In this document: positions 46,861-63,536 of the stretch, piece after piece
Position numbering within the stretch: the stretch's first letter is position 1
How the letters are laid out: every line of letters begins with the position of its first letter
Assembly: GCF_009931435.1 (NCBI RefSeq)
Contig: NZ_CP043414.1
Strand: one strand, 5' to 3'
Length of the DNA stretch: 64,000 nt
From: Escherichia coli
Lineage (GTDB): Bacteria; Pseudomonadota; Gammaproteobacteria; Enterobacterales; Enterobacteriaceae
Notes under the pieces: generated by a model
What the model saw: only the letters and a program-made list of their open reading frames with translations
Databases searched by the model: none
What the model was told of the DNA's origin: nothing
Translations under genes and position numbers: made by a program

Positions 46861-48288
46861 CTAGCGCGACTGCTGATTATATTCATCATCGCGTTGATAA
46901 GCTTCATCATTCGGCTGCTCCGGTACCGACCGCAGTCGATACTCTTCATCCTGGCTCACCGCTTGTTCAGCCAAATCCGGATTAATCTCGCGTTTAATTT
47001 CTACTCCTAAACCGCGAAACGCTTCTGCTTGCGCCAGCACATTTCCGCGACCTGAAGAGAGTTTTTTCATTGCCTGACGATAGTTGTCCTGTGCTTTGTC
47101 CAGACTTTGACCAATCGCGGACATATCATCGACAAACAAGCGCATTTTGTCGTACAACTTGCTGGCACGATCGGCTATTTTCTGAGCGTTGCGGCTTTGA
47201 TGCTCATAGCGCCAGAGGTTGGCGATAGTGCGCAGCGCCACCAGCAGCGTGGTCGGGCTAACCAGCATGATATTGTTTTTCAACGCTTCGGTGATCAGCT
47301 CCGGCTGGCGGTCAAGCGCCAGTAAAAAAGCGGGTTCAACGGGAATAAACATCAGCACGTAATCCAGGGTTCGCAGCCCCGGCAGCTGTTGATAATCTTT
47401 GCGTCCCAGCAAACGGATATGGTTACGCACCGACGCGATATGTTCCTGTAGCGCGCTTTCGCGGGTGTAGTCGTCTTCTGCGTTGAAATAGCGTTCATAG
47501 GCGACCAGTGTCATTTTTGCGTCGATCACCACATCTTTTCCCTGCGGCAACCGCACGATGACATCCGGCTGCATCCGCGAGCGGGCGTCATTTTCGATGC
47601 TGACCTGGGTTTCATATTCATACCCTTCACGCAGACCGGAAGCCTCCAGCACACGCGTCAATACTACCTCGCCCCAGTTGCCCTGGGTTTTATTGTCGCC
47701 TTTCAGCGCACGCGTCAGGTTGATCGCTTCCTGGGCCATTTGCGCGTTGAGCTGCTGGAGATTGCGTATTTCGTGAGTCAGGGTATGGCGTTCTTGTGCT
47801 TCTTTACCGAAACTGTCCTGAACCTGACGACGAAAACCGTCCAGTTGTTCACGTAGTGGCGACAACAGGCTGTTCAGACTCTGACGGTTTTGCTCATCAA
47901 CCCGGCGATTGCTGTGCTCGAAAATACGGTTGGCGAGGTTTTCAAACTGCTCACTGAGGCGCTGTTCGCTGTTGATCATTTGGCGAATTTTATCGTCAGC
48001 ATGTTGCTGTACGGCCTCCATTCGCGTGGTGACTTCACGCAGATCCGCCTCCAGCGAGGTGTTAATGCTTTGCAGACTGCGCACTTCATTATTGAGTAAC
48101 TCGCACTCAGCACGCCAATGTTCGCTTTGGGTAATTTGTTGTTTTGCCGCACTTAACTCCGCGACCATCTCTTCACGTTCAGCGAATTGCTCGGCTTTTT
48201 GCTGCGCATGCTGATAACTGGCAATCAGCCAGCCAATCGCCACGCTCACCAACGCAATAACTGCGTAAACCATGATTGAGATATCCAC
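46861..48288 (-). CDS. rmuC: DNA recombination protein RmuC
   Basis: Start assigned to GTG at 48288 (VDISIMVYAVIAL, preceded by ggagg RBS) giving 475 aa; the ORF-track ATG at 48381 adds 31 aa. Confidence 0.88.
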   Translation of the reverse strand: MDISIMVYAVIALVSVAIGWLIASYQHAQQKAEQFAEREEMVAELSAAKQQITQSEHWRAECELLNNEVRSLQSINTSLEADLREVTTRMEAVQQHADDKIRQMINSEQRLSEQFENLANRIFEHSNRRVDEQNRQSLNSLLSPLREQLDGFRRQVQDSFGKEAQERHTLTHEIRNLQQLNAQMAQEAINLTRALKGDNKTQGNWGEVVLTRVLEASGLREGYEYETQVSIENDARSRMQPDVIVRLPQGKDVVIDAKMTLVAYERYFNAEDDYTRESALQEHIASVRNHIRLLGRKDYQQLPGLRTLDYVLMFIPVEPAFLLALDRQPELITEALKNNIMLVSPTTLLVALRTIANLWRYEHQSRNAQKIADRASKLYDKMRLFVDDMSAIGQSLDKAQDNYRQAMKKLSSGRGNVLAQAEAFRGLGVEIKREINPDLAEQAVSQDEEYRLRSVPEQPNDEAYQRDDEYNQQSR

Positions 48289-48404
48289 AACGCCTCCAGC
48301 CTCATTACTTACCCGCACAAAATAGAATTGTGCTGTACAAACGTCCAGTTTGAAAGAAGTTTCCTGCGAGGCGCTACGCAAAACGATCCTTAATTTTTAT
48401 TATT

Positions 48405-48444
48405 TTATCCCACAATATGAGACCTAGTTTATATTGTGGGATAA
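48405..48444. promoter_or_regulatory. perfect 14-bp inverted repeat, candidate operator
   Basis: ttatcccacaatat-N12-atattgtgggataa, 60-100 bp upstream of the IclR-family gene and about 120 bp upstream of divergent rmuC; no flanking U-run on either strand. Confidence 0.45.
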
Positions 48445-48503
48445 ATCACCTTTTCCCCACGTCATTATGTGGAACACTTCAGCAATATCATCAGGAGAAA
48501 CGT

Positions 48504-49271
48504 ATGGCAGATACCTCTTCAACCACCGCTGGCGCACAAACGTTATTACGCGGGCTCGCGGTTCTTAATGCTGTTTATAACGGCTGCCATGACCTGAAAA
48601 GTATCGGCGAGTTCACCGGCACGACCCGGAGCACAACCCATCGTTTAGTCACCGTTCTGGTGGAACAACGCTACCTGCGCCACGTCCCAACGCAGGGCTA
48701 CCAACTGGGCGCCAAACTGATCGAATTCGGTGCCAGAGCGCTGGAAAGCACCTCGCTGTACGAAGTTGCGCTGCCCGTTTTGCAACGCCTTGCCCGTTAC
48801 ACCCTGGACACCGTGCATCTGGGGATCGTTGAAGGCGACGAAGTGCTGTATCTGGAGAAGATCAACAGCCAGCGCGGGCTGGAAATGCGCTCACGCCCAG
48901 GCCATCGCATGCCACTGGCAATCACCGGCATCGGCAAGGCATTGATCCTCAACCGAACAGAAGAAGAGTGGCGCACGCTGTTTAAGACCTGTGGTGATGA
49001 AACAAAACTGGGCGCATTTATTCAGAACATGCGTCGTTATGCCGCGAGTGGTTTTGCTTTTGATCTGGAAGAGAACGAGCCGACTATCCGTTGCGTTGCA
49101 GCGCCGGTTTACAACGCCCGGGATGAAATTGTGGCGGCTATTTCTGTCGCCAGTACCACTACGTATATGTCACTGGCGCGTCTGGAAGAACTGGCACCTT
49201 ACGTCAAATCCTGTGCAGAAGAGATATCCGCTGAACTGGGCTGGGGTAAGCACGTCCGCAAAAATAAATAA
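48504..49271 (+). CDS. IclR-family transcriptional regulator
   Basis: Start chosen at MADTSSTTAGAQTLLRGLAVLNAV (aggag RBS); N-terminal wHTH plus C-terminal effector-domain pattern typical of IclR regulators. Confidence 0.8.
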   Translation: MADTSSTTAGAQTLLRGLAVLNAVYNGCHDLKSIGEFTGTTRSTTHRLVTVLVEQRYLRHVPTQGYQLGAKLIEFGARALESTSLYEVALPVLQRLARYTLDTVHLGIVEGDEVLYLEKINSQRGLEMRSRPGHRMPLAITGIGKALILNRTEEEWRTLFKTCGDETKLGAFIQNMRRYAASGFAFDLEENEPTIRCVAAPVYNARDEIVAAISVASTTTYMSLARLEELAPYVKSCAEEISAELGWGKHVRKNK

Positions 49272-49294: not shown

Positions 49295-50299
49295 ATGTCG
49301 GGAAACACCTCATTTATTGCCCTGGACTGGGGAACGTCATCGCTTCGGGCATGGCGTTTTGGCGATTCACCAAATCCACAAGAAAAACGTGAATTCCCGT
49401 GGGGGATCATGAAATTACCCTCCCAGGCAGCAACACGTGAGGACGCTTTCCACGATACGTTTTTACGTGTCTGCGGCGACTGGCTGGCACAATCCCCATG
49501 CCCGGTTCTGGCTTGCGGCATGATCGGCAGTGCGCAAGGGTGGCAACCCGCAGCTTATTTACCTTGCCCGGTCACTCTCGAGGGTCTGGCAAAGCAGTTG
49601 ACGCCTGTTATCCACCAGCAGCAGACAATGCTGCATATTATTCCTGGCGTGATTAAAGAAGGTGAAATGCCCGAAGTAATGCGTGGTGAAGAGACACAAA
49701 TCTTCGGTGCTATCTCGATGGAACCGGCCCTGCAAAACGCGATCCGCCAGGGTATGCCTGTGCTGATTGGCTTACCTGGCACACATGCGAAATGGGCGGT
49801 AGTTGAAAACAACACCATTACCGATTTCCGAACCTTTATGACTGGCGAGTTATTTGATGTTTTATCCCGCCATTCGATTCTCGGTGCCACCATGCGTTCG
49901 GGAGATGAACCGCACTGGGATGCCTTCACCCATGGGCTGACAGCAGCACAAGAGCATCATCAGACCGGATTATTATCGACGCTGTTTTCGACCCGTTCGC
50001 GCCTGCTGACCAGTAATCTTACGCCGTCCTCACAGGGGGATTACCTTTCAGGATTACTGATAGGCCATGAATTATGCGGTCTGGCATCCAGTTTGCTACG
50101 TGATTTACCCGCCACAACACCGATCGCCTTAATCGGTAGCGCCACTCTGAACAGCCGCTATTCACAAGCATTCAGCCACGTTTTTCCCGACAGACAGCTA
50201 CACGCCATTCCTAATGCCACTGAACAGGGGTTATGGCGAATCGCCCACGTTGCCGGGCTACTCTCCACCAACGCCAGGGAATGTACCCATGCCATTTAA
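49295..50299 (+). CDS. 2-dehydro-3-deoxygalactonokinase-like sugar-acid kinase (DgoK family)
   Basis: 334 aa; N-terminal IALDWGTSSLRAW and VMRGEETQIFGA / TGELFD..LS.HS.LGA / LSGLLIG motifs align with E. coli DgoK as I recall it. Confidence 0.8.
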   Translation: MSGNTSFIALDWGTSSLRAWRFGDSPNPQEKREFPWGIMKLPSQAATREDAFHDTFLRVCGDWLAQSPCPVLACGMIGSAQGWQPAAYLPCPVTLEGLAKQLTPVIHQQQTMLHIIPGVIKEGEMPEVMRGEETQIFGAISMEPALQNAIRQGMPVLIGLPGTHAKWAVVENNTITDFRTFMTGELFDVLSRHSILGATMRSGDEPHWDAFTHGLTAAQEHHQTGLLSTLFSTRSRLLTSNLTPSSQGDYLSGLLIGHELCGLASSLLRDLPATTPIALIGSATLNSRYSQAFSHVFPDRQLHAIPNATEQGLWRIAHVAGLLSTNARECTHAI

Positions 50300-50918
50300 T
50301 ACGCTTTTGCAAAAAACCGGGTTAGTCGCCATTTTACGCGGCGTGAAACCGGATGAGATTGTCGCCATCGGTGAAAAGCTGTATGCCGCTGGATTTCGCC
50401 TGATTGAGATTCCCATGAACTCGCCGGAGCCGTTGCAAAGTATCAGTTTACTGCGCGACGCCCTGCCTAAGGACTGCCTGGTCGGAGCCGGAACGGTGCT
50501 TTCGGTGGAGCAAGTCGTCGCGGTTAAAGAGGCTGGAGGCCAGATTATCGTGATGCCGCATTGCGATACTGCGGTGATCCGTCGTGCCCGTGCGCTGGGT
50601 ATGTATTGTGCGCCTGGCGTCGCTACGCCCACCGAAGCTTTTGCTGCCATTGAACATGGCGCCAATGCCATCAAGCTGTTCCCGGCTGAACAAATTACGC
50701 CTGAAGTCACCAAAGCCTGGCGTGCGGTTATTCCACAATCCGTTCCGATGTTACCGGTTGGCGGTATCACTCCAGACACAATGGCGCGTTATCTGAGCCA
50801 CGGCGCAAACGGCTTTGGCCTCGGTTCTGCGCTATATCGCCCCGGCATGACGCCAGAGCAAGTCTATGAAAATGCAGTACTGTTTATGAACGCATGGAAC
50901 AATTTAAATAGCAAATAA
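50289..50918 (+). CDS. 2-dehydro-3-deoxy-6-phosphogalactonate (KDPGal/KDPG) aldolase-like
   Basis: Start at MPFNTLLQKTGLVAILRG (209 aa), overlapping the kinase gene by 11 bp; AILRG...EIP.NSP...GAGTVL...GG(I/V)TP motifs of the Eda/DgoA family. Confidence 0.8.
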   Translation: MPFNTLLQKTGLVAILRGVKPDEIVAIGEKLYAAGFRLIEIPMNSPEPLQSISLLRDALPKDCLVGAGTVLSVEQVVAVKEAGGQIIVMPHCDTAVIRRARALGMYCAPGVATPTEAFAAIEHGANAIKLFPAEQITPEVTKAWRAVIPQSVPMLPVGGITPDTMARYLSHGANGFGLGSALYRPGMTPEQVYENAVLFMNAWNNLNSK

Positions 50919-50942
50919 CTGATAAATAAGGATATAAAAGCA

Positions 50943-51917
50943 ATGATAAAACATCTTACCTTACCGAAAAAAATGGCTGCAATGGTACTTCTTGCCGGCG
51001 CTGCCCTCAGCACTGCGCCTGTACAGGCGGCCTCCTGGCCAACCAAACAAATCGAGTTAGTCGTACCCTACGCGGCCGGAGGCGGTACGGACCTGGTTGC
51101 CCGAGCCTTTGCTGATGCCGCCAAAAACCATTTACCCGTCAGCATCGGGGTTATCAATAAACCTGGCGGTGGCGGCGCTATCGGCCTGAGTGAAATCGCC
51201 GCTGCCCGCCCTAACGGTTACAAAATGGGTTTAGGCACGGTTGAACTGACCACCCTTCCCAGCCTCGGAATGGTGCGTTTTAAAACCAGCGACTTTAAAC
51301 CCATTGCCCGTCTGAATGCGGATCCGGCGGCTATCACCGTCCGTGCCGATGCGCCGTGGAATAGCTATGAAGAATTTATGACTTACGCCAAAGCGAATCC
51401 CGGAAAAGTACGCATTGGTAACTCAGGCACCGGAGCAATCTGGCATCTGGCGGCAGCTGCACTGGAAGACAAAACGGGCGTGAAGTTTTCTCATGTCCCG
51501 TATGACGGCGCAGCCCCTGCCATTACAGGCCTGTTAGGCGGGCATATTGAAGCGGTTTCCGTAAGCCCAGGTGAAGTTATCAATCATGTGAAAGGCGGCA
51601 AGCTGAAGACACTGGTAGTGATGGCGGATGAACGTATGAAAACCATGCCTGACGTCCCGACGTTAAAAGAGAAAGGCGTTGATCTCTCCATCGGCACCTG
51701 GCGCGGCCTGATTGTGTCGCAAAAAACGCCGCAGGATGTGGTGGATGTGCTGGCAAAGGCAGCAAAAGAGACGGCTGAAGAGCCTGCATTCCAGGATGCA
51801 CTGCAAAAGTTGAATCTCAACTATGCATGGCTTGATGGTGCCAGCTTCCAGACCCAAATCAACGAGCAGGAAAAGTACTTTGACGAGCTTCTGACTCGCC
51901 TGGGCCTGAAAAAATAA
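50943..51917 (+). CDS. tctC: tripartite tricarboxylate transporter, periplasmic substrate-binding protein (TctC/Bug family)
   Basis: 324 aa; signal peptide then ASWPTKQIELVVPYAAGGGTDLVAR, typical Bug-family N-terminus. Confidence 0.8.
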   Translation: MIKHLTLPKKMAAMVLLAGAALSTAPVQAASWPTKQIELVVPYAAGGGTDLVARAFADAAKNHLPVSIGVINKPGGGGAIGLSEIAAARPNGYKMGLGTVELTTLPSLGMVRFKTSDFKPIARLNADPAAITVRADAPWNSYEEFMTYAKANPGKVRIGNSGTGAIWHLAAAALEDKTGVKFSHVPYDGAAPAITGLLGGHIEAVSVSPGEVINHVKGGKLKTLVVMADERMKTMPDVPTLKEKGVDLSIGTWRGLIVSQKTPQDVVDVLAKAAKETAEEPAFQDALQKLNLNYAWLDGASFQTQINEQEKYFDELLTRLGLKK

Positions 51918-51933
51918 TCCCGAGGTACGGTCG

Positions 51934-52440
51934 ATGAACACAAAACAGTCTGTTGCTCAACTCGCCGTACCGCACCGCAAGCGCCTTTCATCCACTGTGG
52001 TGGTGGCGCTGTTACTTTGTGTGGTTGCTGGCGCGGTGATAATTAATGCCGCTGATTTTCCAGCAACTGCCATTGAAACGGATCCCGGTGCAAGTGCCTT
52101 CCCTACTTTCTATGCCTGCGCTCTGATTGTGCTCGCTGTCTTACTGGTGATACGCGATCTTTTGCTGGCAAAACCAGTCCCTTGCGCCAACGCACAGGAA
52201 AAACCGGCATTAAGGAAAACGGCAACAGGAATTGCGGCAACCGCGTTTTATATTGTGGCGATGAGCTACTGCGGTTATCTCGTTACTACTCCTGTTTTCC
52301 TCATCGTCATTATGACGTTGATGGGCTACAGGCGATGGGTACTCACTCCGGGTATTGCGCTGCTGTTAACGGCAATCCTCTGGTTGCTGTTTGTCGAAGC
52401 GTTACAGGTGCCATTGCCTGTCGGCACATTTTTCGAATAA
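51934..52440 (+). CDS. tctB: tripartite tricarboxylate transporter small membrane subunit (TctB-like)
   Basis: 168-aa 4-TM protein between tctC-like and tctA-like genes. Confidence 0.7.
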   Translation: MNTKQSVAQLAVPHRKRLSSTVVVALLLCVVAGAVIINAADFPATAIETDPGASAFPTFYACALIVLAVLLVIRDLLLAKPVPCANAQEKPALRKTATGIAATAFYIVAMSYCGYLVTTPVFLIVIMTLMGYRRWVLTPGIALLLTAILWLLFVEALQVPLPVGTFFE

Positions 52441-52452
52441 CAGGGGCCTGCA

Positions 52453-53943
52453 ATGTTTGAAAGTGAACTTTTAACTCAGGGGTTTTCGACATTACTCAGT
52501 AATCCTCAGGCGCTGCTGTTTGCCACGTTTGGAGTGATGCTGGGTATTATGATTGGCGCTCTGCCTGGCCTGACAGCGACCATGGGTGTGGCGATTTTGC
52601 TGCCTTTCACCTACGGCATGGAGCCTGTTTCTGGCTTGTTGATGATTTGCGGTGTCTTTTTTGGTGGTGTGTATGGTGGTTCTATCACCGCAATTTTGCT
52701 CAAAATTCCCGGTACACCTGCCGCCGCTGCCACCGCCATTGACGGTTATGAGTTAACGAAGCAGGGAAAAGCCGGGCTGGCATTAAGTGCCGCCACGTTC
52801 TCTTCTTTTAGCGGTGGAACGCTCAGCATTATCGTATTGATGTTTCTCTCTCCGGTCCTTGCTAGTTGGGCGTTGAAATTTAGTGCCTCGGAGTCCTTCG
52901 CCCTGGCAACCTTCGGACTGAGCATTATTGCCAGTATTTCCGGTGAGTCGCTGATTAAAGGGCTGATCGCCGGGATTGGCGGATTAATGATCGCAACGAT
53001 AGGCCTCGATCCGATGGGCGGTTTTCCACGCTTTACGGGCGGGTTTGTGGAACTGATGAATGTGCCATTTATCCCGGTGATGATTGGTCTGTTTGCTGCT
53101 TCAGAAGCGTTCCGTTCTATGGAACAAAATCAGCATATTCGTCAGAGCGCGAACGTGGCTATCGGCAGTCTGTTACTGCCCTGGCAAACGCTACGCCGCA
53201 TCGCATTAACCATTTTGCGCTCATCAGGATTAGGGGTTTTTATCGGCATGATCCCCGGTGCGGGGGCAGATATTGCAGCTTTTGTTGCCTATAACGAAAC
53301 TCGTCGTTTCAGTAAGACGCCTGAAAACTTTGGTAAGGGTGAGATTAAGGCGGTGGCCTCCTGTGAGGCAGGCGCGAATGGCTGCACCGGTGGCGCATTG
53401 TTACCTATGCTGACGTTGGGGATCCCAGGCGATGCGGTAACTGCCATCATGCTGGGCGCGTTAACGTTACAAGGGATGCAGCCAGGCCCACTGATGTTTA
53501 CCGACCACGGCGATATGGTTTATACGTTATTTGTCGGCATGATCTTCTGTTACTTCATGCTGCTAGTTCTTGGACTGCTCTCTTTGAAAGTCATCGGTAA
53601 CGTGGTGAAAATTCCCGGCAATATTCTCACACCGATGATCCTCGCACTTTGTGTGGTCGGGACTTATGCGTTGAACAATAGCCTGTTTGATGTTGGCATT
53701 ATGCTGATTGCAGGCGTGGTGGGCTATTTCATGCAAAAAGGGGGATATCCGGCATCACCCGTAGTGCTGGCATTGATTATGGGGCCAATGGCGGAAAGTA
53801 ATTTTCGCCGTGCGCTGTCGCTTTCAGGGGGGTCACTCGACTTCCTGTATACCCGACCGATAACCCTGGCATTGCTGACACTGGCAGCCTTTACGCTACT
53901 GACGCCAATAATACGCAAAATTATGCGCTTACGGCGTCAGTAA
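52453..53943 (+). CDS. tctA: tripartite tricarboxylate transporter large permease subunit (TctA-like)
   Basis: 496-aa polytopic membrane protein with duplicated GxPGxxA / IPGxPA-type motifs. Confidence 0.85.
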   Translation: MFESELLTQGFSTLLSNPQALLFATFGVMLGIMIGALPGLTATMGVAILLPFTYGMEPVSGLLMICGVFFGGVYGGSITAILLKIPGTPAAAATAIDGYELTKQGKAGLALSAATFSSFSGGTLSIIVLMFLSPVLASWALKFSASESFALATFGLSIIASISGESLIKGLIAGIGGLMIATIGLDPMGGFPRFTGGFVELMNVPFIPVMIGLFAASEAFRSMEQNQHIRQSANVAIGSLLLPWQTLRRIALTILRSSGLGVFIGMIPGAGADIAAFVAYNETRRFSKTPENFGKGEIKAVASCEAGANGCTGGALLPMLTLGIPGDAVTAIMLGALTLQGMQPGPLMFTDHGDMVYTLFVGMIFCYFMLLVLGLLSLKVIGNVVKIPGNILTPMILALCVVGTYALNNSLFDVGIMLIAGVVGYFMQKGGYPASPVVLALIMGPMAESNFRRALSLSGGSLDFLYTRPITLALLTLAAFTLLTPIIRKIMRLRRQ

Positions 53944-53964
53944 TTGATATCGCTCCCCGACGTT

Positions 53965-54110
53965 GGGGAGTATGAGACTGATGACAAACGCTAAATTGCC
54001 TGATGCGCTGCGCTTATCAGGCCTACCACAGAAATGCAATATATTGAATTTGCATGCTTTTGTAGGCCGGATAAGGCGATCACGCCGCATCCGGTATGAA
54101 CAAAGGACAC
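53965..54110. repeat. REP/BIME elements at the island 1 / udp junction
   Basis: gcctgatgcgctgcgcttatcaggcctac and gtaggccggataaggcgatcacgccgcatccggtatg units. Confidence 0.65.
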
Positions 54111-54127
54111 GTTAACAACAATCGGAA

Positions 54128-54153
54128 TGCTCCCCTAAGCCAGGGAGCGTTTT
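54128..54153 (+). terminator. rho-independent terminator (plus-strand, ends tct operon transcription)
   Basis: ctcccctaagccagggag hairpin followed by a T6 run. Confidence 0.55.
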
Positions 54154-54918
54154 TTATTTCAGCAGACGACGCGCCGCTTCCACCACGATTTTCACCGCCT
54201 GGCTTTCGGTTTGTTTCATCGTCTCAGCATTCGGGATCTCTTGCTGGGTACGATTGACGATAACGCCCGCCACCATACCCGCACGCAGGCCCTGGCTTGC
54301 ACACATGGTCAGCAGGGTTGCAGATTCCATTTCATAGTTCATTACGCCCATCGCCTGCCACTCTTCCATAGAACCTTTAAAGTGACGGACTACACGACCA
54401 GAGTAAGTATCGTAACGTTCCTGACCCGGGTAGAAGGTATCAGAAGAAGCCGTCACACCAACGTGAGTGGTGGCACCAATTGACTTCGCCGCTTCAACCA
54501 GCGCGGTCGTACATTCGAAATCTGCGACAGCCGGGAACTCCAGCGGAGCGAAGTGCAGGCTCGCGCCATCCAGACGAACAGACGCCGTGGTCACCAGCAC
54601 ATCGCCGACATTGATATGCGGCTGGATAGCGCCCGTTGTACCGATACGCAGGAAGGTGCGAATGCCCAGCTGTGCCAGCTCTTCAACCGCAATAGAGGTA
54701 GACGGGCCGCCGATACCGGTAGAGCAGACGATAACAGGTTTACCATCCAGCTCTGCACGCCAGGTGGTGAATTCGCGGTGAGATGCCAGCTTAACCGGCT
54801 TATCCATCAGCGCGGCGATCTTTTCCACACGATCCGGGTCGCCAGGGACGATGGCAAGCGTAGCCCCTTGTAAATCGTTTTTAGTGAGGCCGAGATGAAA
54901 AACATCAGACTTGGACAT
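54154..54918 (-). CDS. udp: uridine phosphorylase
   Basis: [41 protein letters not shown]...; PNP/UDP family. Confidence 0.96.
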
Positions 54919-55179: not shown

Positions 55180-55989
55180 ATGGCAACAACACAACAATCT
55201 GGATTTGCACCTGCTGCATCACCTCTCGCTTCGACCATCGTTCAGACCCCGGATGACGCGATTGTAGCAGGCATCACCTCTATCCCTTCACAAGGGGATA
55301 ACATGCCTGCTTACCATGCCAGACCAAAGCAGAGCGATGGCCTACTACCAGTGGTCATTGTAGTGCAGGAAATTTTTGGCGTGCATGAACATATCCGCGA
55401 TATTTGTCGCCGTCTGGCGCTGGAGGGGTATCTGGCTATCGCACCTGAACTTTACTTCCGCGAAGGCGATCCGAATGATTTTGCCGATATCCCTACGCTG
55501 CTTAGCGGTCTGGTAGCAAAAGTGCCTGACTCGCAGGTGCTGGCCGATCTCGATCATGTCGCCAGTTGGGCGTCACGCAACGGCGGCGATGTTCATCGCT
55601 TAATGATCACCGGATTTTGCTGGGGTGGGCGCATCACCTGGCTGTATGCTGCGCATAATCCACAACTGAAAGCAGCGGTGGCATGGTACGGCAAATTAAC
55701 CGGCGATAAGACGCTGAATTCACCGAAACAACCTGTTGATATCGCAACCGATCTTAACGCTCCGGTTCTCGGCTTATATGGCGGCCAGGATAACAGCATT
55801 CCGCAGGAGAGCGTTGAAACCATGCGCCAGGCGCTGCGGGCTGCTAATGCGAAAGCAGAGATTATCGTCTACCCGGATGCCGGGCATGCATTCAACGCCG
55901 ATTATCGCCCGAGCTATCATGCCGAATCTGCGAAAGATGGCTGGCAGCGAATGCTGGAGTGGTTTAAGCAGTATGGTGTTAAAAAGTAA
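55180..55989 (+). CDS. ysgA: dienelactone hydrolase family protein
   Basis: Start chosen at MATTQQSGFAPAAS (269 aa); alpha/beta hydrolase with nucleophile motif ITGFCWGG. Confidence 0.9.
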   Translation: MATTQQSGFAPAASPLASTIVQTPDDAIVAGITSIPSQGDNMPAYHARPKQSDGLLPVVIVVQEIFGVHEHIRDICRRLALEGYLAIAPELYFREGDPNDFADIPTLLSGLVAKVPDSQVLADLDHVASWASRNGGDVHRLMITGFCWGGRITWLYAAHNPQLKAAVAWYGKLTGDKTLNSPKQPVDIATDLNAPVLGLYGGQDNSIPQESVETMRQALRAANAKAEIIVYPDAGHAFNADYRPSYHAESAKDGWQRMLEWFKQYGVKK

Positions 55990-56245: not shown

Positions 56246-56914
56246 ATGACGCAATCCATTTTTCAGGCTCAACCCTTTGAATTACCTTTTGATCCGCGCA
56301 CAACTGCACTGGTCATGATCGACATGCAGCGTGACTTTGTCGAAGCAGGGGGCTTCGGTGAGGCACTGGGCAATGATGTTTCACTGGTACGCACGGCTAT
56401 CGCACCATGTACAGAGGTGCTGGCAGCCGCACGTCAAAAAGGAATTATGGTTATTCATACTCGTGAAGGCCATCGTGCAGACTTAAGCGACTGCCCGCCA
56501 GCCAAACTGACGCGCGGCGGAAAAACCTTTATTGGTGAACCAGGACCGATGGGACGCATTCTGGTCAGAGGTGAAGCGGGTCATGACATCATTCCTGAAC
56601 TGTACCCAGTGACAGGCGAACCGGTGATTGATAAGCCCGGTAAAGGCGCTTTTTATCAAACCGACTTACATCTGATTTTGCAAAACCACGGTATCAAGAC
56701 GCTGATAGTTTGTGGTGTAACAACCGAAGTTTGCGTAACCACCACCGTGCGCGAAGCAAATGACCGTGGCTATGAATGCATTATCCCGGAAGATTGTGTC
56801 GGCTCATATTTCCCGGAATTCCAGAAATATGCCCTCGAGATGATCAAAGCACAAGGTGCCATTTTCGGTTGGGTGAGTGATTCCAAAGCCATTATTGCAG
56901 GTCTGGAAGGCTAA
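56246..56914 (+). CDS. isochorismatase-family cysteine hydrolase (RutB/BiuH-like amidohydrolase)
   Basis: 222 aa; D-K-C triad context (ALVMIDMQRDF, DKPGKGAF, VCGVTTEVC) and a C-terminal FGWVSDS block resembling RutB as I recall it. Confidence 0.75.
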   Translation: MTQSIFQAQPFELPFDPRTTALVMIDMQRDFVEAGGFGEALGNDVSLVRTAIAPCTEVLAAARQKGIMVIHTREGHRADLSDCPPAKLTRGGKTFIGEPGPMGRILVRGEAGHDIIPELYPVTGEPVIDKPGKGAFYQTDLHLILQNHGIKTLIVCGVTTEVCVTTTVREANDRGYECIIPEDCVGSYFPEFQKYALEMIKAQGAIFGWVSDSKAIIAGLEG

Positions 56915-56919
56915 CGCCG

Positions 56920-57780
56920 ATGGTACAGGTGACGCTTTGCGCATCATCGTTGGGATATCTTTTCCCGCAAAATGAAACGCAAGATTTACGTCTGCATAGT
57001 GCTTTTAAACATGCGGTAAATCTGTATTCAGAAGCGGGAACATTCATCACTCTGTTGTGTGCGCAAACGTATCTGAATCTCCCTGATGCCGCCAGAGTCA
57101 ACCTGCCTGAGAATTGGGACTGGCGAAGAGAGATTGCCCATTCAGATCCCATTCAGTTAACCCCAGGCTTGTTACAAACACCTCGCTTTTGCGTGGTGCT
57201 TCATAACACAACACTTTGGCAACCGCCATTTGTGGGGGGAATGCTGACACTTGAGGCATTCCCTTTGGTTTTCCAGCACTACCCAACGATGGCATCGCAA
57301 CGGCTTTTATTTTGTCTGGAGCATAACGTTCAAAGCACATTGCACCTGCCGGATAGTCTCACGCACCAGGGATTAGCGATTATGGAACATCCAGATGCAC
57401 TGGAACGCCAGGTGCCACAACTGATCGGCTTTGGTAAAGGCTTAACGCCCGATGGAGATGACTATTTGTTGGGCTATCTGGCAGCGCTCTGGTTATGGCA
57501 ACTCCCTGCAACACTTGCCGATCATCAATACCGGTTGCAGCAGGCAATTGATCAACATGCGCACAACACCACGGATATCAGTCGTCATTATCTGGAGCGT
57601 GCGCTTCAGGGGCATTTTTCAGAACCGATTTGCCAGTTACTCGCACAACTGGTTGGGGGCGCATCGGAAATGACAATCGCATCCTGTGCAGAACAGGTCA
57701 TGCAATTTGGCGCAACGTCAGGAGTAGATTGCCTTGCAGGAATGCTGCATGGCTTTCGAACCCTGAACACCATGAATTGA
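56920..57780 (+). CDS. DUF2877-like protein (YlbF/YahE-like putative carbamoyltransferase subunit)
   Basis: 286 aa, 6 bp after the hydrolase gene; GFGKGLTPDGDDYLLG motif; assignment to DUF2877 is from memory of the LTPxGDD signature and the conserved position next to FdrA-like/DUF1116 genes. Confidence 0.55.
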   Translation: MVQVTLCASSLGYLFPQNETQDLRLHSAFKHAVNLYSEAGTFITLLCAQTYLNLPDAARVNLPENWDWRREIAHSDPIQLTPGLLQTPRFCVVLHNTTLWQPPFVGGMLTLEAFPLVFQHYPTMASQRLLFCLEHNVQSTLHLPDSLTHQGLAIMEHPDALERQVPQLIGFGKGLTPDGDDYLLGYLAALWLWQLPATLADHQYRLQQAIDQHAHNTTDISRHYLERALQGHFSEPICQLLAQLVGGASEMTIASCAEQVMQFGATSGVDCLAGMLHGFRTLNTMN

Positions 57781-57874
57781 TTTCAACCTTTTCTCCCGTA
57801 GCCCATTTATGGCGCTACACGGGGATGCTTTGCCCGAATTTTGCTATCGGGCGGAATAAAACAGGCGTAACAGC

Positions 57875-59434
57875 ATGAAAGTTAAATATAAAGTTTTCAG
57901 CAATCTTTATCAGGACTCGGTTTCTCTGATGCAGATTTCCGCGCAAATCAGTAAGTTGCCCGGTATTCAACAGGCCTCGGTCGTCATGGGAACACCCAAT
58001 AATCTCGAACAATTGCGCGATGCGGGTCTGGGTAACGAAATCAACGCCAGTCCCAATGATTTAGTGATTGCAGTCATGGGTGAAGAAGATATTTGCAATG
58101 AAGCACTGATACTGGCCCAGCAACGTCTGACCAGCAAACCCGATGATGAAACGGATAGTGGCATTAAAACACCGGAAAATGTCAGCCTGGAAATGGCACT
58201 GGAAGCCGACACCGAAGCCAACCTGGCACTCATTTCTGTACCGGGAGACTACGCCGCCGCCGAAGCAATTAAAGCGTTAAACCTCGGAATGAACGTGATG
58301 ATGTTCAGCGATAACGTCAGTATCGGGCAGGAAAAATCCATCAAAACACTTGCCCGAGAACGTCAGCGCATCGTAATGGGACCTGATTGTGGAACCGCCA
58401 TTGTTAACGGCATTCCGTTAGGCTTCGCTAATGTGGTGAAACGCGGAGCAATTGGTGTTATTGGCGCGTCAGGCACCGGGCTACAGGAAGTGACTTGCCG
58501 AATCGACCAGCTCGGAGCGGGTATTTCTCAGGCGTTGGGAACAGGCGGGCATGATCTCAGTGAAGAGATTGGTGGAATATCGATGCTCTTCGCTTTAGAT
58601 GCGCTGGCGCAAGACGATGAAACTCGCGTGATTGTGCTTATTTCAAAACCGCCTTCACCGATCGTTGCCCGGGCTATTCTGGAGCGCGCCGAGGCTTGTG
58701 GAAAACCCGTGGTGGTGAATTTCCTCGGTGCGAATCCGCATGATCTGGCACGTCCCAATATCACCGCTGCCGCCACACTTGCCAGCGCCGCAAATATCGC
58801 CGTGGCAGTACTGAATGATCAGCCACTTCCGACTGTCGAGACCGAGATTTCCTGCGACGATCTCACAATGTTACAAAACGCCTGCCAGCGTCTGCCAGCC
58901 CATCGCCAGGCGATACGCGGTGTTTTCGCCGGAGGAACCTTCTGTTACGAAGCGCAACTTATCTGCCAGCAAAAGGGATTCAGCGCCGCCTCCAATACGC
59001 CAGTTGCGGGTAATCGTACTCTGGCAAATATCTGGCAAAGCAAAGGTCACACGCTGATCGATATGGGCGACGATGATTTCACCCGTGGCAAACCGCATCC
59101 AATGATCGACCCGACTCTGCGCAATCAACGTCTGCTCAACGAACTCAACGACTCACACACTGCCGTCGTGTTATTCGACCTGGTACTTGGTTATGGCGCT
59201 TCCGCTACGCCTGCCAGCGAATTACTGGACCAACTTTCACACATCGACATGAATAACGCACCGTTGCTGATTGCGCACGTTTGCGGAACGGAAGCTGATC
59301 CGCAAATACGCAGTCAGCAGATAAGCGCACTACAAAATGCGGGCATCATCATTGCCAGCAGCAATGCACAGGCGGCGCTATGGGCCAGCGCCGTTGCGCA
59401 GACTCAGTTGCAGAAAAAGGGGCTAAACGCATGA
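57875..59434 (+). CDS. FdrA-like protein (CoA-binding/succinyl-CoA-synthetase-like fold)
   Basis: 519 aa; N-terminus YQDSVSLMQISAQISKLPGIQQASVVMGTPNN aligns with E. coli FdrA; internal NVMMFSDNV, MGPDCGT and VIGASGTG motifs. Confidence 0.8.
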   Translation: MKVKYKVFSNLYQDSVSLMQISAQISKLPGIQQASVVMGTPNNLEQLRDAGLGNEINASPNDLVIAVMGEEDICNEALILAQQRLTSKPDDETDSGIKTPENVSLEMALEADTEANLALISVPGDYAAAEAIKALNLGMNVMMFSDNVSIGQEKSIKTLARERQRIVMGPDCGTAIVNGIPLGFANVVKRGAIGVIGASGTGLQEVTCRIDQLGAGISQALGTGGHDLSEEIGGISMLFALDALAQDDETRVIVLISKPPSPIVARAILERAEACGKPVVVNFLGANPHDLARPNITAAATLASAANIAVAVLNDQPLPTVETEISCDDLTMLQNACQRLPAHRQAIRGVFAGGTFCYEAQLICQQKGFSAASNTPVAGNRTLANIWQSKGHTLIDMGDDDFTRGKPHPMIDPTLRNQRLLNELNDSHTAVVLFDLVLGYGASATPASELLDQLSHIDMNNAPLLIAHVCGTEADPQIRSQQISALQNAGIIIASSNAQAALWASAVAQTQLQKKGLNA

Positions 59435-60855
59435 ATACCTTATTTAATCAGCCTTTGAAGGTCGTGAACGCGGGACTACACAGTTTTGCTGACAATATTC
59501 AACATGCCGGGGGAAGCGCAATTGCACTCAACTGGCAGCCACCAGCACAAGGCGATATTGACGCTGGATTGGATCTGGCATCGTTGCTACGTCATCCACT
59601 AGTAGAAAATGCCAATCAAATCGCCATGACACGTTATCTCGAAGCACAACCCGTGCTGGTGGATGTCATGCTCGCTAAAGAGGCCATTCCAGCAATGGCT
59701 GAACAAAAACGTATTTTGCACTCTGGTCCGCCGATTGCCTGGGAAGAGATGTGTGGTCCGGTAAAAGGGGCGATTATTGGTGCCATGCTGTACGAAGGTT
59801 GGGCCACCAGCCAGCAAGACGCTGAAAACCAGATAAACACAGGCGAAATCGACCTTGCCCCTTGTCATCATTATCACGCGGTTGGACCAATGGCAGGCAT
59901 CATCAGCCCGTCGATGCCGTTATGGGTGGTAGAAAACAAAACCAACGGCCACCGTACTTTTAGCAATTTCAATGAAGGTCTGGGTAAGGTTCTCCGTTTT
60001 GGTGCCAATAACGATGAAGTTCTCAATCGTCTGGCCTGGATGCGCGATGAACTGGCACCGGCAATGAAAGCAGCAATCGCACAACACGGCGAGCTGGAAC
60101 TCAAGCCATTAATGGCGCAGGCGCTGCATATGGGGGATGAAGTTCATAACCGCAATGCTGCCGCTACCGGTTTGCTGATTAAGCGCCTGCTCCCGGCATT
60201 GCTGGCCTGCTCTATTCCACAGGAACATATCCAGCGCGTCGTGGCATTTATCACCAGTAACGATCACTTCTTCCTCAATCTGTCGATGGCTGCCTGTAAA
60301 GCGATGATGGATGCCGCCGCCAATGTACCGTTCAGTTCAATGGTTACGGTGATGGCGCGTAACGGGGTGAATTTTGGTATTCGGCTTTCCGGTACTGGCG
60401 ATCGCTGGTTCCAGGCTCCTGCCAATGCAGTTGAAGGTCTGTTCTTCCCCGGATTTGGCGTCGACGATGCCGCTGCTGACCTGGGTGATAGCGCAATTAC
60501 CGAAACCGCAGGTGTGGGTGGCTTCGCGATGGCGTCATCTCCAGCGATCGTCAAATTTGTGGGAGGCACCCCTGCCGATGCCACCAATAACAGCCGTAGG
60601 ATGCAAGCAATCACCCTCGGTGGTAACCCCGCATTTACACTTCCTGCCCTCAATTTTGCCCCCACCGCAGCAGGGATTGATGCGCGTAAAGTGACCGATC
60701 GCGGCATTTTACCGGTCATCAATACGGGTATCGCCCACAAACAAGCGGGGGTCGGGCAAATTGGTGCCGGGATCACCACTGCGCCGATGGCCTGTTTTGT
60801 CGCCGCTGTACGTGCACTGTCTGAGATCGTCGCAAAGGAGAACCATCATGGTTAA
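59431..60855 (+). CDS. DUF1116-family protein (YlbE/YahG-like)
   Basis: Start at MNTLFNQPLKV, overlapping the FdrA-like stop (ATGA); 474 aa; family call from memory. Confidence 0.7.
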   Translation: MNTLFNQPLKVVNAGLHSFADNIQHAGGSAIALNWQPPAQGDIDAGLDLASLLRHPLVENANQIAMTRYLEAQPVLVDVMLAKEAIPAMAEQKRILHSGPPIAWEEMCGPVKGAIIGAMLYEGWATSQQDAENQINTGEIDLAPCHHYHAVGPMAGIISPSMPLWVVENKTNGHRTFSNFNEGLGKVLRFGANNDEVLNRLAWMRDELAPAMKAAIAQHGELELKPLMAQALHMGDEVHNRNAAATGLLIKRLLPALLACSIPQEHIQRVVAFITSNDHFFLNLSMAACKAMMDAAANVPFSSMVTVMARNGVNFGIRLSGTGDRWFQAPANAVEGLFFPGFGVDDAAADLGDSAITETAGVGGFAMASSPAIVKFVGGTPADATNNSRRMQAITLGGNPAFTLPALNFAPTAAGIDARKVTDRGILPVINTGIAHKQAGVGQIGAGITTAPMACFVAAVRALSEIVAKENHHG

Positions 60856-61804
60856 GCCACTGGCTGTTGTCGCAGTTGGCGGCAATGCGCTCATTCAGGA
60901 CGAGCAACGCAATAGTATTCCCGATCAATATGTTGCAGTGATGGAAAGCGTGCAGCATATCGTTGATATGGTTGAAGCCGGATGGGACCTGGTGCTTACC
61001 CACGGTAATGGCCCGCAGGTGGGCTTTATTCTGCGCCGCTCTGAACTCGCCAGTAACGAAGTTTCTCCGGTTCCACTTGATTACGCCGTGGGTGATACAC
61101 AAGGTGCAATTGGCTACATGTTCCAGAAAGCGCTGCATAACGAATTGGCTCGCCGTGGCATAAACAAACCGGTAATTGCGCTGGTGACACAAACGCGAGT
61201 CTGCCCACATGACGATGCTTTCACCAGCCCCAGTAAACCGATTGGCGCGTTTCTCGATGAAGCAACGGCCCTACAACGCCAACAGCAACTCGGCTGGACG
61301 CTGATGGAGGACGCCGGGCGTGGTTGGCGGCGTACAGTTCCCTCTCCTGCGCCACTGGAAATTATTGAGCACGACACCATCGCTCACCTGGTGCGCCAGG
61401 GATATCTGGTTATTGCCTGCGGCGGTGGCGGTATTCCGGTGGTGCGAGACGGACAACAACTGAAAGGTGTGGAAGCCGTGATCGATAAAGATCTGGCCTC
61501 CGCGCTGCTCGCCAGTCAGTTAGGCGCAGATCTGCTGGTGATCCCCACCGGTGTAGAAAAAGTGGCGATTAACTTTGGTACACCACAACAACAGTGGCTC
61601 GACGCTATCAGCGTTGCCGAAGCGCAAACGCTGTTACGGGAAGGTCAGTTTGGTGTCGGCAGTATGCAGCCCAAAGTGGAAGCCATTGTTGATTTCATCA
61701 ATGCCAGCCAACAACAAGGCAAACAGGCCAGCGGCCTGATTACTTCACCGCAAACCATAAAAGCAGCCCTTTCGCATCAGAGCGGCACATGGATAACCCT
61801 TTAA
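60848..61804 (+). CDS. carbamate kinase
   Basis: 318 aa; VVAVGGNAL and THGNGPQVG amino-acid-kinase motifs; 8-bp overlap with the upstream gene. Confidence 0.85.
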   Translation: MVKPLAVVAVGGNALIQDEQRNSIPDQYVAVMESVQHIVDMVEAGWDLVLTHGNGPQVGFILRRSELASNEVSPVPLDYAVGDTQGAIGYMFQKALHNELARRGINKPVIALVTQTRVCPHDDAFTSPSKPIGAFLDEATALQRQQQLGWTLMEDAGRGWRRTVPSPAPLEIIEHDTIAHLVRQGYLVIACGGGGIPVVRDGQQLKGVEAVIDKDLASALLASQLGADLLVIPTGVEKVAINFGTPQQQWLDAISVAEAQTLLREGQFGVGSMQPKVEAIVDFINASQQQGKQASGLITSPQTIKAALSHQSGTWITL

Positions 61805-61820
61805 TTCTCTGGAGAACTCA

Positions 61821-62210
61821 ATGACTACAACACTTTTAGCCGTTAACGGAACGCTGATGCGTGGCCTGGAACTCAACCCAAATATGCAAAAAGCGGGCGG
61901 CATTTTTGTCCGTGAAGACCGAACTGACGCCCATTACAGGTTGTGGAGTATTAACGATCGTCATCCGGGAATGATTCGCGTGAATGAAGGAGGAACACAC
62001 GTCGACGTAGAAATTTGGCAATTACCACTGACCAGTTTTGCCGCTCTGTTAATGAGCGAACCCGCTGGGCTGGCAATTGGCAAAATCAAACTTGCCGATG
62101 GTAGCGAAGTGCTGGGCGTACTGGCAGAAAACTGGCTGACCGAAGGCCAACGGGAAATTACAGAACTGGGTAGCTGGCGCAAATACACCGGGCATTTTCA
62201 TACTGTGTAA
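61821..62210 (+). CDS. small cytoplasmic protein of unknown function (possibly GGCT/AIG2-like or allophanate-hydrolase C-terminal-domain-like)
   Basis: 129 aa, no TM segment; NGTLMRG near the N-terminus weakly resembles the YGSL(x)RG motif of gamma-glutamyl cyclotransferase-like folds. Confidence 0.45.
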   Translation: MTTTLLAVNGTLMRGLELNPNMQKAGGIFVREDRTDAHYRLWSINDRHPGMIRVNEGGTHVDVEIWQLPLTSFAALLMSEPAGLAIGKIKLADGSEVLGVLAENWLTEGQREITELGSWRKYTGHFHTV

Positions 62211-62235
62211 CGCGCATTTTTAAAGGGAACATACT

Positions 62236-63459: not shown

Positions 63460-63536
63460 TTCCTGGGTATACTCAGGCAATGATTACGGCTGAATCTGGA
63501 GAGATTCAGCCACTTTACCACTGACCAGGGAGCCTT

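What the first reader, a model, noticed from the sequence alone, without database searches (positions are those of the whole stretch)
53944..54153. Island junctions lack mobility genes; island 1 ends in REP elements and a terminator
No integrase, transposase, tRNA or direct repeats flank either island. Island 1 abuts a REP cluster and a strong hairpin/T-run just before the udp stop. This fits an old, stably integrated accessory operon or a lineage-specific deletion in K-12-like strains rather than a recent mobile-element insertion.
Basis: partly seen in the sequence, partly recalled or inferred. Interest (0 to 1): 0.3.

Follow-up and report, generated by a model that had tools for sequence, protein, structure and literature searches.

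The report
Old sugar-acid islet ending in BIME
The 210 bases between tctA and udp hold an ordinary E. coli repeat (one BIME-1 element made of two REPs) and a transcription terminator, at the end of an already described six-gene islet that sits in the same chromosomal slot in several enterobacterial genera.

Summary
Window 53944-54153 is the tctA-udp intergenic region. It contains two head-to-head REPs and a hairpin plus T-run that overlaps the udp stop codon. No integrase, transposase, tRNA or island-flanking repeat lies at the three junctions inside the window.

- **Island 1.** It spans 48385-54159 (5,775 bp) and carries iclR, dgoK-like, dgoA-like and tctCBA. It is the "5-kb, 6-ORF islet between udp and rmuC" already reported in ExPEC.
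- **Distribution.** 1,452 of 5,426 complete E. coli genomes carry it. 3,969 carry one uniform empty allele with a private 47-bp filler.
- **Age.** The same operon occupies the same slot in E. whittamii, Phytobacter, Buttiauxella and two Klebsiella species. It has diverged in step with its flanks and has normal GC. So it is old, and K-12 most likely lost it.
- **The REP cluster is not an island boundary.** It is a single ~158-bp BIME-1 with an IHF-type linker, plus a second copy of the terminator hairpin. This 177-bp extra occurs in only 17 island-bearing E. coli genomes and, without the second hairpin, in E. whittamii.
- **Island 2.** Its right junction lies outside the window. Its eight-gene module also occurs on 82 conjugative plasmids.

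Ordinary and largely known; low interest.

The parts
46861..48288 (-). rmuC, the left core flank of island 1
   Evidence: RefSeq annotation of near-identical genomes; tblastn.
48333..48348 (.). CTG-N10-CAG LexA-box-like site in the conserved rmuC upstream region. Homology to K-12 continues to 48384.
   Evidence: Sequence. Conserved in Klebsiella and Buttiauxella. The LexA assignment rests on my own knowledge that yigN/rmuC is SOS-regulated; it was not tested.
48384..48385 (.). Left breakpoint of island 1 (…GCGCTACGCAAAA | CGATCC…)
   Evidence: Comparison of the K-12 DH10B empty site with the window.
48404..48445 (.). Perfect 15-nt inverted repeat TTTATCCCACAATAT/ATATTGTGGGATAAA; candidate IclR operator in the operon promoter region
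   Evidence: Inverted repeat I8. The ATCCCA…TGGGAT core recurs in the orthologous regions of other genera. The operator role is inferred.
48504..49271 (+). IclR-family regulator
   Evidence: Pfam HTH_IclR and IclR_C; RefSeq annotation.
49295..50299 (+). 2-dehydro-3-deoxygalactonokinase-like kinase
   Evidence: Pfam DGOK, E = 1.5e-89.
50289..50918 (+). KDPG/KDPGal-type aldolase
   Evidence: Pfam Aldolase PF01081, E = 1e-29.
50943..51917 (+). TctC (Bug family) periplasmic binding protein
   Evidence: Pfam TctC.
51934..52440 (+). TctB small membrane subunit
   Evidence: Pfam TctB.
52453..53943 (+). TctA permease, the last gene of island 1
   Evidence: Pfam TctA, E = 2e-151.
53952..53971 (+). Hairpin H1 (GCTCCCCGACGTTGGGGAG). 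In most island-bearing E. coli this is the stem of the single tctA/udp terminator. Here the 177-bp extra separates it from its T-run.
   Evidence: Fold at -13.5 kcal/mol; alignment with BL21 and ABU83972.
53972..54129 (.). BIME-1 (RIP/RIB-type) element. It comprises a conserved left flank, REP 53998-54026 (- orientation), a 35-nt L linker 54027-54061 with the IHF-consensus-like ATTCAATATATTG (54037-54049, -), REP 54062-54095 (+), and a conserved right flank.
   Evidence: Family copies at fdhE-yiiF, livF-ugpB and fliC-fliA are 77-86% identical over about 152-158 bp. The BIME-1 definition is from PMC3333891.
54124..54159 (+). Hairpin H2 (core GCTCCCCTAAGCCAGGGAGC, 54129-54148) plus T6AT3. This is the intrinsic terminator of the tctA operon. 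Its complement gives udp a hairpin with a weak U-tract.
   Evidence: -15.6 kcal/mol on +, -13.6 on -. H2 matches H1 at 14 of 19 positions.
54154..54918 (-). udp, 254 aa, ending …LLK*. The right breakpoint of island 1 is at 54159|54160.
   Evidence: K-12 Udp is 253 aa and ends …LL*.
55180..55989 (+). ysgA. The left breakpoint of island 2 lies inside its 3' end, at 55978|55979.
   Evidence: Alignment of the four slot states.
56246..64000 (+). Island 2 module A: isochorismatase-type cysteine hydrolase, AllH-like, FdrA, AllG-like, carbamate kinase, allophanate-hydrolase-related protein, cytosine permease, and the start of LysR. It runs off the window.
   Evidence: The same module is on 82 conjugative plasmids.

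Best explanation
The interval is the 3' intergenic region shared by two convergent transcription units: the tctA end of a six-gene operon, and udp.

The operon. It encodes an IclR repressor, a DgoK-like kinase, a DgoA-like aldolase and a TctCBA transporter. I infer that it imports a 2-keto-3-deoxy sugar acid, phosphorylates it and cleaves it. It is an old chromosomal resident of the rmuC-udp slot in Enterobacteriaceae. In Escherichia it has been inherited with its flanks. In E. coli it is now a presence/absence polymorphism (about 27% full, 73% empty). The empty K-12-type allele is most likely a single old loss event that then spread by homologous recombination through the conserved flanks. 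No site-specific mobile element is involved.

The spacer. In most carriers it is 33-34 bp: one GC hairpin flanked by an A-run and a T-run, acting as a bidirectional terminator whose T-run overlaps the udp stop. In the window's divergent lineage, a single BIME-1 element sits between that hairpin and its T-run. The element is two inverted REPs around an IHF-type linker, about 158 bp. A second, related hairpin restores a stem next to the T-run. E. whittamii has the same BIME but not the second hairpin.

Likely role of the BIME. By analogy with other REP/BIME-1 elements, it acts as a 3'-end mRNA stabiliser, an insulator between convergent genes, and a site for IHF binding. It plays no part in the arrival or loss of the island.

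Shown: the anatomy, the breakpoints, the population frequencies, the synteny and the co-divergence. Inferred: the direction of the events, the substrate, and terminator and BIME function.
For: Breakpoints and alleles.
- The breakpoints are 48384|48385 and 54159|54160 against K-12.
- 1,452 genomes cover at least 80% of the island query.
- 3,969 genomes carry the empty junction, and all 44 sampled rows have the same 46-47-bp filler.
- The filler is found in exactly those 3,969 genomes and in no island-bearing genome.

Age of the operon in this slot.
- The operon has the same order and orientation between rmuC and udp in E. whittamii, Buttiauxella warmboldiae, Klebsiella indica and K. spallanzanii. 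In Phytobacter massiliensis it lies between ubiE and udp.
- The promoter/operator region is conserved across these genera.
- The overlap of the T-run with the udp stop is also present in K. spallanzanii (TTTTTTATTA|CAGCAG).
- Sliding identity across island and flanks gives the same ordering. The window is 93-97% identical to E. coli sensu stricto and 89-98% to E. whittamii.
- GC, GC3 and codon usage match the flanking core genes.
- No plasmid carries the island.

The BIME.
- It meets the REP/BIME-1 criteria (PMC3333891).
- The 177-bp long form is in exactly 17 genomes, and the next-best genomes are exactly 177 bp shorter.
- The window copy is 89.5% identical to the E. whittamii copy at the same position, against 77-86% to paralogous copies.

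Literature.
- The islet, and the lack of mobility genes in the neighbouring island, were reported before (PMC3349570).
- Presence/absence of BIME-1 among isolates is known (PMC1187871, citing Bachellier 1997).
Against: - **Patchy distribution.** Only six species representatives of Enterobacteriaceae in GTDB gave a close TctA. Vertical descent therefore needs many independent losses.
- **Uneven divergence.** Some island proteins are far more diverged between genera than the flanks are. DgoK is 48-59% and TctB 49-61% identical, against 94-97% for Udp. Replacement by divergent alleles through flank recombination cannot be excluded.
- **Unexplained filler.** K-12 keeps the ancestral-looking TTA stop and AGAATTA, whereas all Escherichia island alleles have TTT. 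The empty allele is therefore not a simple deletion derivative of today's full allele.
- **Flanks do not date the event.** The flanks of empty and full alleles are 97-100% identical up to the breakpoints within E. coli sensu stricto. This gives no independent dating.
- **Outgroups lacking the operon** (E. albertii, E. fergusonii, Salmonella) could not be examined.
- **Function is untested.** Terminator and BIME function were not tested, and the minus-strand (udp) hairpin has a poor U-tract.
Confidence: 0.75

Rival explanations
1. Island 1 is a horizontally acquired insertion. An ancestor of Escherichia, and separately other genera, captured the operon at rmuC-udp. The K-12 empty allele with its own udp terminator and TAA stop is the original state.
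For: The K-12 allele keeps the …LL* stop and AGAATTA seen in other genera. The operon is widespread outside enterobacteria, in Azospirillum, Skermanella, Brenneria and Cohaesibacter, at 69-73% TctA identity. Its distribution among enterobacterial species is patchy. DgoK and TctB are strongly diverged between genera.
Against: Independent capture of the same six genes, in the same orientation, at the same intergenic site in five genera is very unlikely. No integrase, att site or repeat is present. The promoter/operator and the T-run/stop overlap are orthologous across genera. Composition is host-like. The genera that carry the island also have the LL* stop, so that character does not mark an empty ancestor.
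Confidence: 0.15
2. The REP/BIME cluster is the functional edge of the island: a recombination or IS-targeting site that mediated gain or loss of the island.
For: REPs are known targets of IS elements and substrates of RAYT/TnpAREP (PMC3333891, PMC1525189). The BIME lies within 30-190 bp of the right breakpoint.
Against: 1,435 of 1,452 island-bearing genomes lack the BIME yet share the same outer breakpoints. The empty allele holds no REP. Neither the left junction nor either island-2 junction has a REP.
Confidence: 0.03
3. The 177-bp long form is a recent BIME-1 insertion into the terminator of the window's lineage, with duplication of the 19-nt hairpin as a target-site duplication. On this view it is not an ancestral state that E. 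coli sensu stricto lost.
For: The long form is rare (17 of 1,452). The 19-nt H1/H2 repeat sits exactly at the two ends of the extra DNA. Other BIME-1 copies also lie directly after a terminator-like hairpin, for example at livF-ugpB.
Against: E. whittamii is an outgroup to both the window lineage and E. coli sensu stricto. It has a BIME at the same position whose closest relative is the window's copy (89.5%). This favours an old insertion followed by a 177-bp deletion between H1 and H2 in E. coli sensu stricto. H1 and H2 differ at 5 of 19 positions, too many for a recent duplication. E. whittamii has no H2. A search for a clean filled/empty pair at another BIME-1 locus found none.
Confidence: 0.25

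Closest known systems
The '5-kb islet of 6 ORFs between udp and rmuC', and the 16-kb tkt1 genomic island between metE and ysgA, of APEC O1 and B2 ExPEC (Li et al. 2012, BMC Microbiol 12:51, PMC3349570)
   Same: Same two slots and same gene content for island 1. The window's island 2 is the first eight genes (module A) of the tkt1 island. That paper also reports no flanking direct repeats, integrases or transposases.
   Different: The window's island 2 lacks the tkt/ptsG/hxlB/rpiR module and the tssD remnant. Island 1 here is a roughly 4-5% diverged allele with an extra 177 bp at its end. The paper called the six ORFs 'unknown function' and treated the tkt1 island as foreign DNA. The synteny across genera found here points to an old resident locus.
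BIME-1, also called RIP or RIB elements, of E. coli (Gilson 1991; Boccard & Prentki 1993; Bachellier 1997, 1999; summarised in PMC3333891 and PMC1187871)
   Same: One y-type and one z1-type REP, head to head, around a conserved long linker with an IHF-type site. Single copy, about 140-160 bp, at the 3' end of transcription units, and present or absent between isolates.
   Different: Nothing essential. This copy is bracketed by two related terminator hairpins, which I did not find described. IHF binding was not tested.
Bidirectional intrinsic terminators between convergent genes
   Same: A GC hairpin flanked by an A-run on one side and a T-run on the other, shared by tctA and udp (BL21 form: -17.2 and -17.4 kcal/mol on the two strands).
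   Different: In the window the BIME splits the stem from the original T-run and a second hairpin takes over. The udp-side U-tract is weak.

Membership tests
BIME-1 (RIP/RIB) element | Two REPs in inverted orientation, each with the GTAG/CTAC tetranucleotide at the foot of an imperfect palindrome | tested here: met
   GTAGGCCTGATAAG at 54013-54026 (-) and GTAGGCCGGATAAG at 54062-54075 (+), both with 0 mismatches. Inverted repeats I2, I6 and I9.
BIME-1 (RIP/RIB) element | One y-type and one z1-type REP separated by the conserved long (L) linker; single copy, not a tandem array | tested here: met
   A 35-nt linker whose core is identical to that of other family copies. There are only two REPs in the interval. 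The y/z1 typing is by resemblance to the aligned K-12 copies, not by a formal classifier.
BIME-1 (RIP/RIB) element | IHF binding site in the L linker | tested here: inconclusive
   ATTCAATATATTG at 54037-54049 (-) has 1 mismatch to WATCAANNNNTTR. The consensus is from my own knowledge. Binding cannot be tested with these tools.
BIME-1 (RIP/RIB) element | Dispersed repeat family in the same genome | tested here: met
   A median of 4 places per E. coli genome match positions 29-186 of the interval at about 86% identity. Copies at fdhE-yiiF, livF-ugpB and fliC-fliA were aligned.
Classical genomic or pathogenicity island (integrase-mediated) | Integrase, transposase or other mobility gene within or at the edge | tested here: not met
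   Pfam on all island-1 proteins and four island-2 proteins. RefSeq annotation of complete relatives.
Classical genomic or pathogenicity island (integrase-mediated) | Insertion at a tRNA or tmRNA gene with flanking direct (att) repeats | tested here: not met
   No tRNA within 20 kb. No repeat links the two ends. The junctions fall in or at the stop codons of udp, ysgA and metE.
Classical genomic or pathogenicity island (integrase-mediated) | Atypical base composition or codon usage | tested here: not met
   Island 1 GC is 52.1% against 52.3% for the flanking core genes, and RSCU correlates at r = 0.90. Island 2 is 51.2%.
Intrinsic (Rho-independent) terminator | GC-rich stem-loop immediately followed by a U-run on the transcribed strand | tested here: met
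   On the + strand, 11 pairs with an 8-nt loop, then UUUUUUAUUU. On the - strand the stem is present but the U-tract is weak. Termination itself is not testable here.

The most novel reading that the evidence does not exclude
The H1-BIME-H2 arrangement, with an exact 177-bp filled/empty pair, could be a preserved footprint of how BIME-1 elements move. On this reading the element inserts between the stem and the U-tract of an intrinsic terminator and duplicates the 19-nt hairpin. That would give a concrete target rule and a target-duplication signature for a repeat class whose mobility has never been caught in the act.
Probability: 0.08. Interest if true: 0.45.

Novelty: already known. Interest (0 to 1): 0.15.

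Why it matters
It matters little beyond careful annotation. It shows that some E. coli "islands" without mobility genes are old resident operons that are being lost, not new arrivals, and that REPs next to an island need not relate to its origin. The exact breakpoints, the single uniform empty allele and the filled/empty BIME-1 pair give clean markers for studying how presence/absence polymorphisms persist through flank recombination. The six-gene operon itself has no experimentally assigned substrate. That is the more useful open question.

Tried and rejected
- **First REP pattern.** A rigid 35-nt REP pattern found nothing. The pattern was too strict. A 14-nt head motif then worked.
- **Island-flanking repeats.** A search across 48200-54350 gave only short matches of the kind chance produces.
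- **Origin of the K-12 filler.** I searched for the 47-bp filler in island-bearing genomes and in outgroup loci. I found only a 21-nt chance match in purN, plus the last 4-7 nt next to the udp stop in Klebsiella and Phytobacter.
- **A second filled/empty BIME-1 pair.** I looked at livF-ugpB to test the hairpin-duplication idea. That copy is nearly fixed, and the exceptions are not clean empty sites.
- **Outgroup empty sites.** I used the exact K-12 Udp protein to look for them. It returned only E. coli-type contigs.
- **Primary BIME papers** (PMC1207841, PMC413762, PMC333889) are not held in the library.
- **Rfam.** At a relaxed threshold it gives only sub-threshold hits to REP-derived families (naRNA4, ES036).
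- **Small ORFs** in the spacer lie within the repeat sequence and were not pursued.
- **Function of the operon.** A literature search found nothing specific.

Full report
**Locus.** The window is an Escherichia chromosome segment with the order ubiE-rmuC-[island 1]-udp-ysgA-[island 2]. The interval 53944-54153 is exactly the spacer between the convergent genes tctA (stop codon 53941-53943) and udp (stop codon 54154-54156 on the minus strand).

The window's core genes are only about 96.3% identical to nearly all 5,426 complete E. coli genomes. The best match is 98.6%, to strain R32_14_1F. The window therefore comes from a divergent lineage that NCBI labels E. coli.

**Checking the observation.**
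- Two REPs face each other head to head. The GTAG-headed motif occurs at 54013-54026 (-) and 54062-54075 (+). The window has 9 such motifs against 0.45 expected.
- The REPs are separated by a 35-nt linker. Its core TGCAATATATTGAATTTGCA is unique in the window, against 0.01 expected.
- The best terminator-like site in the 8-kb neighbourhood is 54124-54153, followed by T6AT3. It folds at -15.6 kcal/mol, z = -3.6. The T-run contains the udp stop codon.
- No tRNA lies nearer than the rrn operon at 28.5 kb.
- The six island-1 proteins are an IclR regulator, a DGOK-family kinase, a KDPG-type aldolase, TctC, TctB and TctA. The island-2 proteins tested are also metabolic.
- No repeat links the two ends of island 1.

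The description is therefore correct, with two caveats. Island 2's right junction lies beyond the window end. In the near-identical genome R32_14_1F it is LysR-metE, with no mobility gene. The interval also contains a 19-nt imperfect direct repeat, discussed below.

**Breakpoints and alleles of island 1.** Against K-12 (DH10B), homology ends at 48384|48385 (…GCGCTACGCAAAA|) and resumes at 54159|54160 (|CAGCAGACG). Island 1 is therefore 5,775 bp.

The K-12 site is not empty. It holds 47 private bp (ATACAAAAGGCCGAACGCGTCGGCCTTCAGACAGGAGAAGAGAATTA). These include udp's own terminator hairpin and a TAA stop directly after …Leu-Leu. Island alleles instead read …Leu-Leu-Lys-stop.

Population frequencies among complete E. 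coli genomes:
- 1,452 of 5,426 carry the island.
- 3,969 carry the empty junction, and all 44 sampled rows show the same 46-47-bp filler.
- The filler occurs in exactly those 3,969 genomes and nowhere in island carriers.

So there are two discrete alleles with no intermediates.

**Age of island 1.** A scan of one genome per species with TctA found the same six genes in the same order and orientation in five further species. They lie between rmuC and udp in Escherichia whittamii, Buttiauxella warmboldiae, Klebsiella indica and K. spallanzanii. They lie between ubiE and udp in Phytobacter massiliensis.

Further evidence that these copies are orthologous and old:
- The rmuC-proximal promoter region and a palindromic ATCCCA…TGGGAT motif upstream of iclR are conserved across these genera.
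- K. spallanzanii has the same overlap of the T-run with the udp stop (GGGGC-TTTTTTATTA|CAGCAG) as the Escherichia island allele (…GAGCG-TTTTTTATTT|CAGCAG). The extra Lys in Escherichia comes from one substitution in a TAATAA tandem stop.
- Within Escherichia, island and flanks show the same ordering of divergence. The window is 93-97% identical to E. coli sensu stricto and 89-98% to E. whittamii.
- GC (52.1% against 52.3% for the flanking core genes), GC3 and codon usage (r = 0.90) are host-like.
- No plasmid in PLSDB carries the island.

This supports an old resident operon and a loss in K-12-type strains.

Points against, or unresolved:
- The operon is patchy among enterobacterial species.
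- DgoK and TctB are only about 50-60% identical between genera.
- The K-12 filler is of unknown origin. Its last 4-7 nt match the udp 3' flank of Klebsiella and Phytobacter.
- The flanks of full and empty alleles are 97-100% identical up to the breakpoints within E. coli sensu stricto.

So the date and exact mechanism of the loss remain open. I could not retrieve the slot from species that lack the operon.

**The REP cluster.** In BL21, ABU83972, SMS-3-5 and the other 1,435 carriers, the tctA-udp spacer is only 33-34 bp. It consists of one hairpin, CGCTCCCCGAAGTTGGGGAGCG, directly followed by TTTTTTATTT. The hairpin folds equally well on both strands, at -17.2 and -17.4 kcal/mol. That makes it a compact bidirectional terminator.

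The window and exactly 16 other complete genomes plus R32_14_1F (17 in all) have 177 extra bp. Of these:
- About 158 bp (53972-54129) belong to a dispersed family with a median of four copies per genome. I aligned the copies at fdhE-yiiF, livF-ugpB and fliC-fliA.
- The family unit is a left flank, a REP, the linker with an IHF-consensus-like ATTCAATATATTG (one mismatch), a second REP, and a right flank.
- This matches the published definition of BIME-1: one y and one z1 REP, a long conserved linker that often carries an IHF site, single copy, about 140 bp (PMC3333891; PMC1187871).
- BIME-1 elements are known to be present or absent between isolates.
- The remaining 19 bp are a second hairpin (H2, 54129-54147). 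It matches the first (H1, 53952-53970) at 14 of 19 positions, P about 1e-5. All differences lie in the loop and the top of the stem.

The REP cluster is thus a secondary feature of a minority allele, not an edge of the island.

**Direction of the 177-bp difference.** E. whittamii is an outgroup to both the window lineage and E. coli sensu stricto. It has a BIME at the same position after H1. That copy is 89.5% identical to the window's, closer than any paralogous copy (77-86%). It lacks H2.

The simplest reading is an old insertion followed by a deletion between H1 and H2 in E. coli sensu stricto. A crossover in the shared GGGAG would yield exactly the short form. A recent insertion with hairpin duplication is less likely but not excluded. 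An attempt to find a second clean filled/empty BIME-1 pair failed.

**Island 2.**
- The left breakpoint lies inside the ysgA 3' end, at 55978|55979. Each slot state goes with a different YsgA C-terminus.
- The right breakpoint, seen in R32_14_1F, is the metE stop codon.
- The slot is a mosaic with four states: empty (K-12); module A only (window, R32_14_1F); modules A+B+C, which is the 16-kb tkt1 island (ABU83972); or the tssD remnant only (2013C-4282).
- Module A is also on 82 conjugative plasmids at about 94% identity, including a ColV plasmid. One of them, pLH50-c-A, has IS66 and IS3 transposase genes just downstream of the module.
- The two islands assort independently.

So "no mobility connection" holds for the chromosomal junctions but not for the history of the module.

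**Comparison with what is known.** Li et al. [quoted passage not shown] They also noted the absence of direct repeats, integrases and transposases. BIME-1 elements and their presence/absence polymorphism are textbook E. coli repeats.

What this analysis adds:
- the exact breakpoints;
- the uniform empty allele with its private filler;
- the stop-codon difference in udp;
- conservation of the slot across genera;
- the finding that the BIME is a rare secondary addition.

**Verdict.** The finding is real and correctly described. Its interpretation is essentially right for island 1. It is ordinary and already known, and interest is low.

Noticed in passing
window 48404-48445: Perfect 15-nt inverted repeat TTTATCCCACAATAT / ATATTGTGGGATAAA upstream of iclR. 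Its ATCCCA…TGGGAT core is conserved in the orthologous regions of Buttiauxella, Klebsiella and Phytobacter. It is a likely operator of the IclR regulator.
   Followed up: partly
window 48333-48348: CTGTACAAACGTCCAG (CTG-N10-CAG), a LexA-box-like site upstream of rmuC, conserved across genera. The left island breakpoint lies 36 bp beyond it, so the rmuC promoter region is left intact.
   Followed up: no
window 54154-54159: Udp of all Escherichia island alleles ends …LLK*, whereas K-12, Klebsiella and Phytobacter end …LL*. The cause is a single TTA-to-TTT change in a TAATAA tandem stop that lies inside the terminator T-run.
   Followed up: yes
window 56232-64000; L090 and L091: The eight-gene module of island 2 (cysteine hydrolase, AllH-like, FdrA, AllG-like, carbamate kinase, allophanate-hydrolase-related protein, cytosine permease, LysR) is also carried at about 94% identity by 82 conjugative plasmids. 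These include pAPEC-O2-211A-ColV. IS66 and IS3 transposase genes lie just downstream of the module on pLH50-c-A.
   Followed up: partly
window 55978-55989; L001, L002, L092: The ysgA-metE slot has at least four states: empty, module A, modules A+B+C (the tkt1 island), or a tssD pseudogene remnant. Each state goes with a different YsgA C-terminus. Both breakpoints fall at or within stop codons.
   Followed up: yes
window 31000-43000 and the whole window: Core genes are only about 96.3% identical to almost all 5,426 complete E. coli genomes, with a best match of 98.6%. The window comes from a deeply branching lineage, possibly like cryptic clade I.
   Followed up: partly
L002 5386-5432 (K-12 rmuC-udp spacer): The 47-bp filler of the empty allele is 98-100% conserved in exactly 3,969 genomes and absent from every island carrier. 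Its origin is unexplained.
   Followed up: partly
window 53941-54165: When the whole spacer is folded as RNA, the left half of H1 pairs with the right half of H2 and encloses the BIME in one long structure (-78 to -83 kcal/mol, z about -5 on both strands). This may simply reflect the repeated stems.
   Followed up: no
window 54019-54101: Sub-threshold Rfam matches to the REP-derived families naRNA4 (32.4 bits, gathering score 59.5) and ES036/CssrF (31.4 bits, gathering score 37.6).
   Followed up: no
L011 (Phytobacter massiliensis) 5044-6086: In Phytobacter the operon sits directly next to ubiE. No rmuC was detected between them.
   Followed up: no
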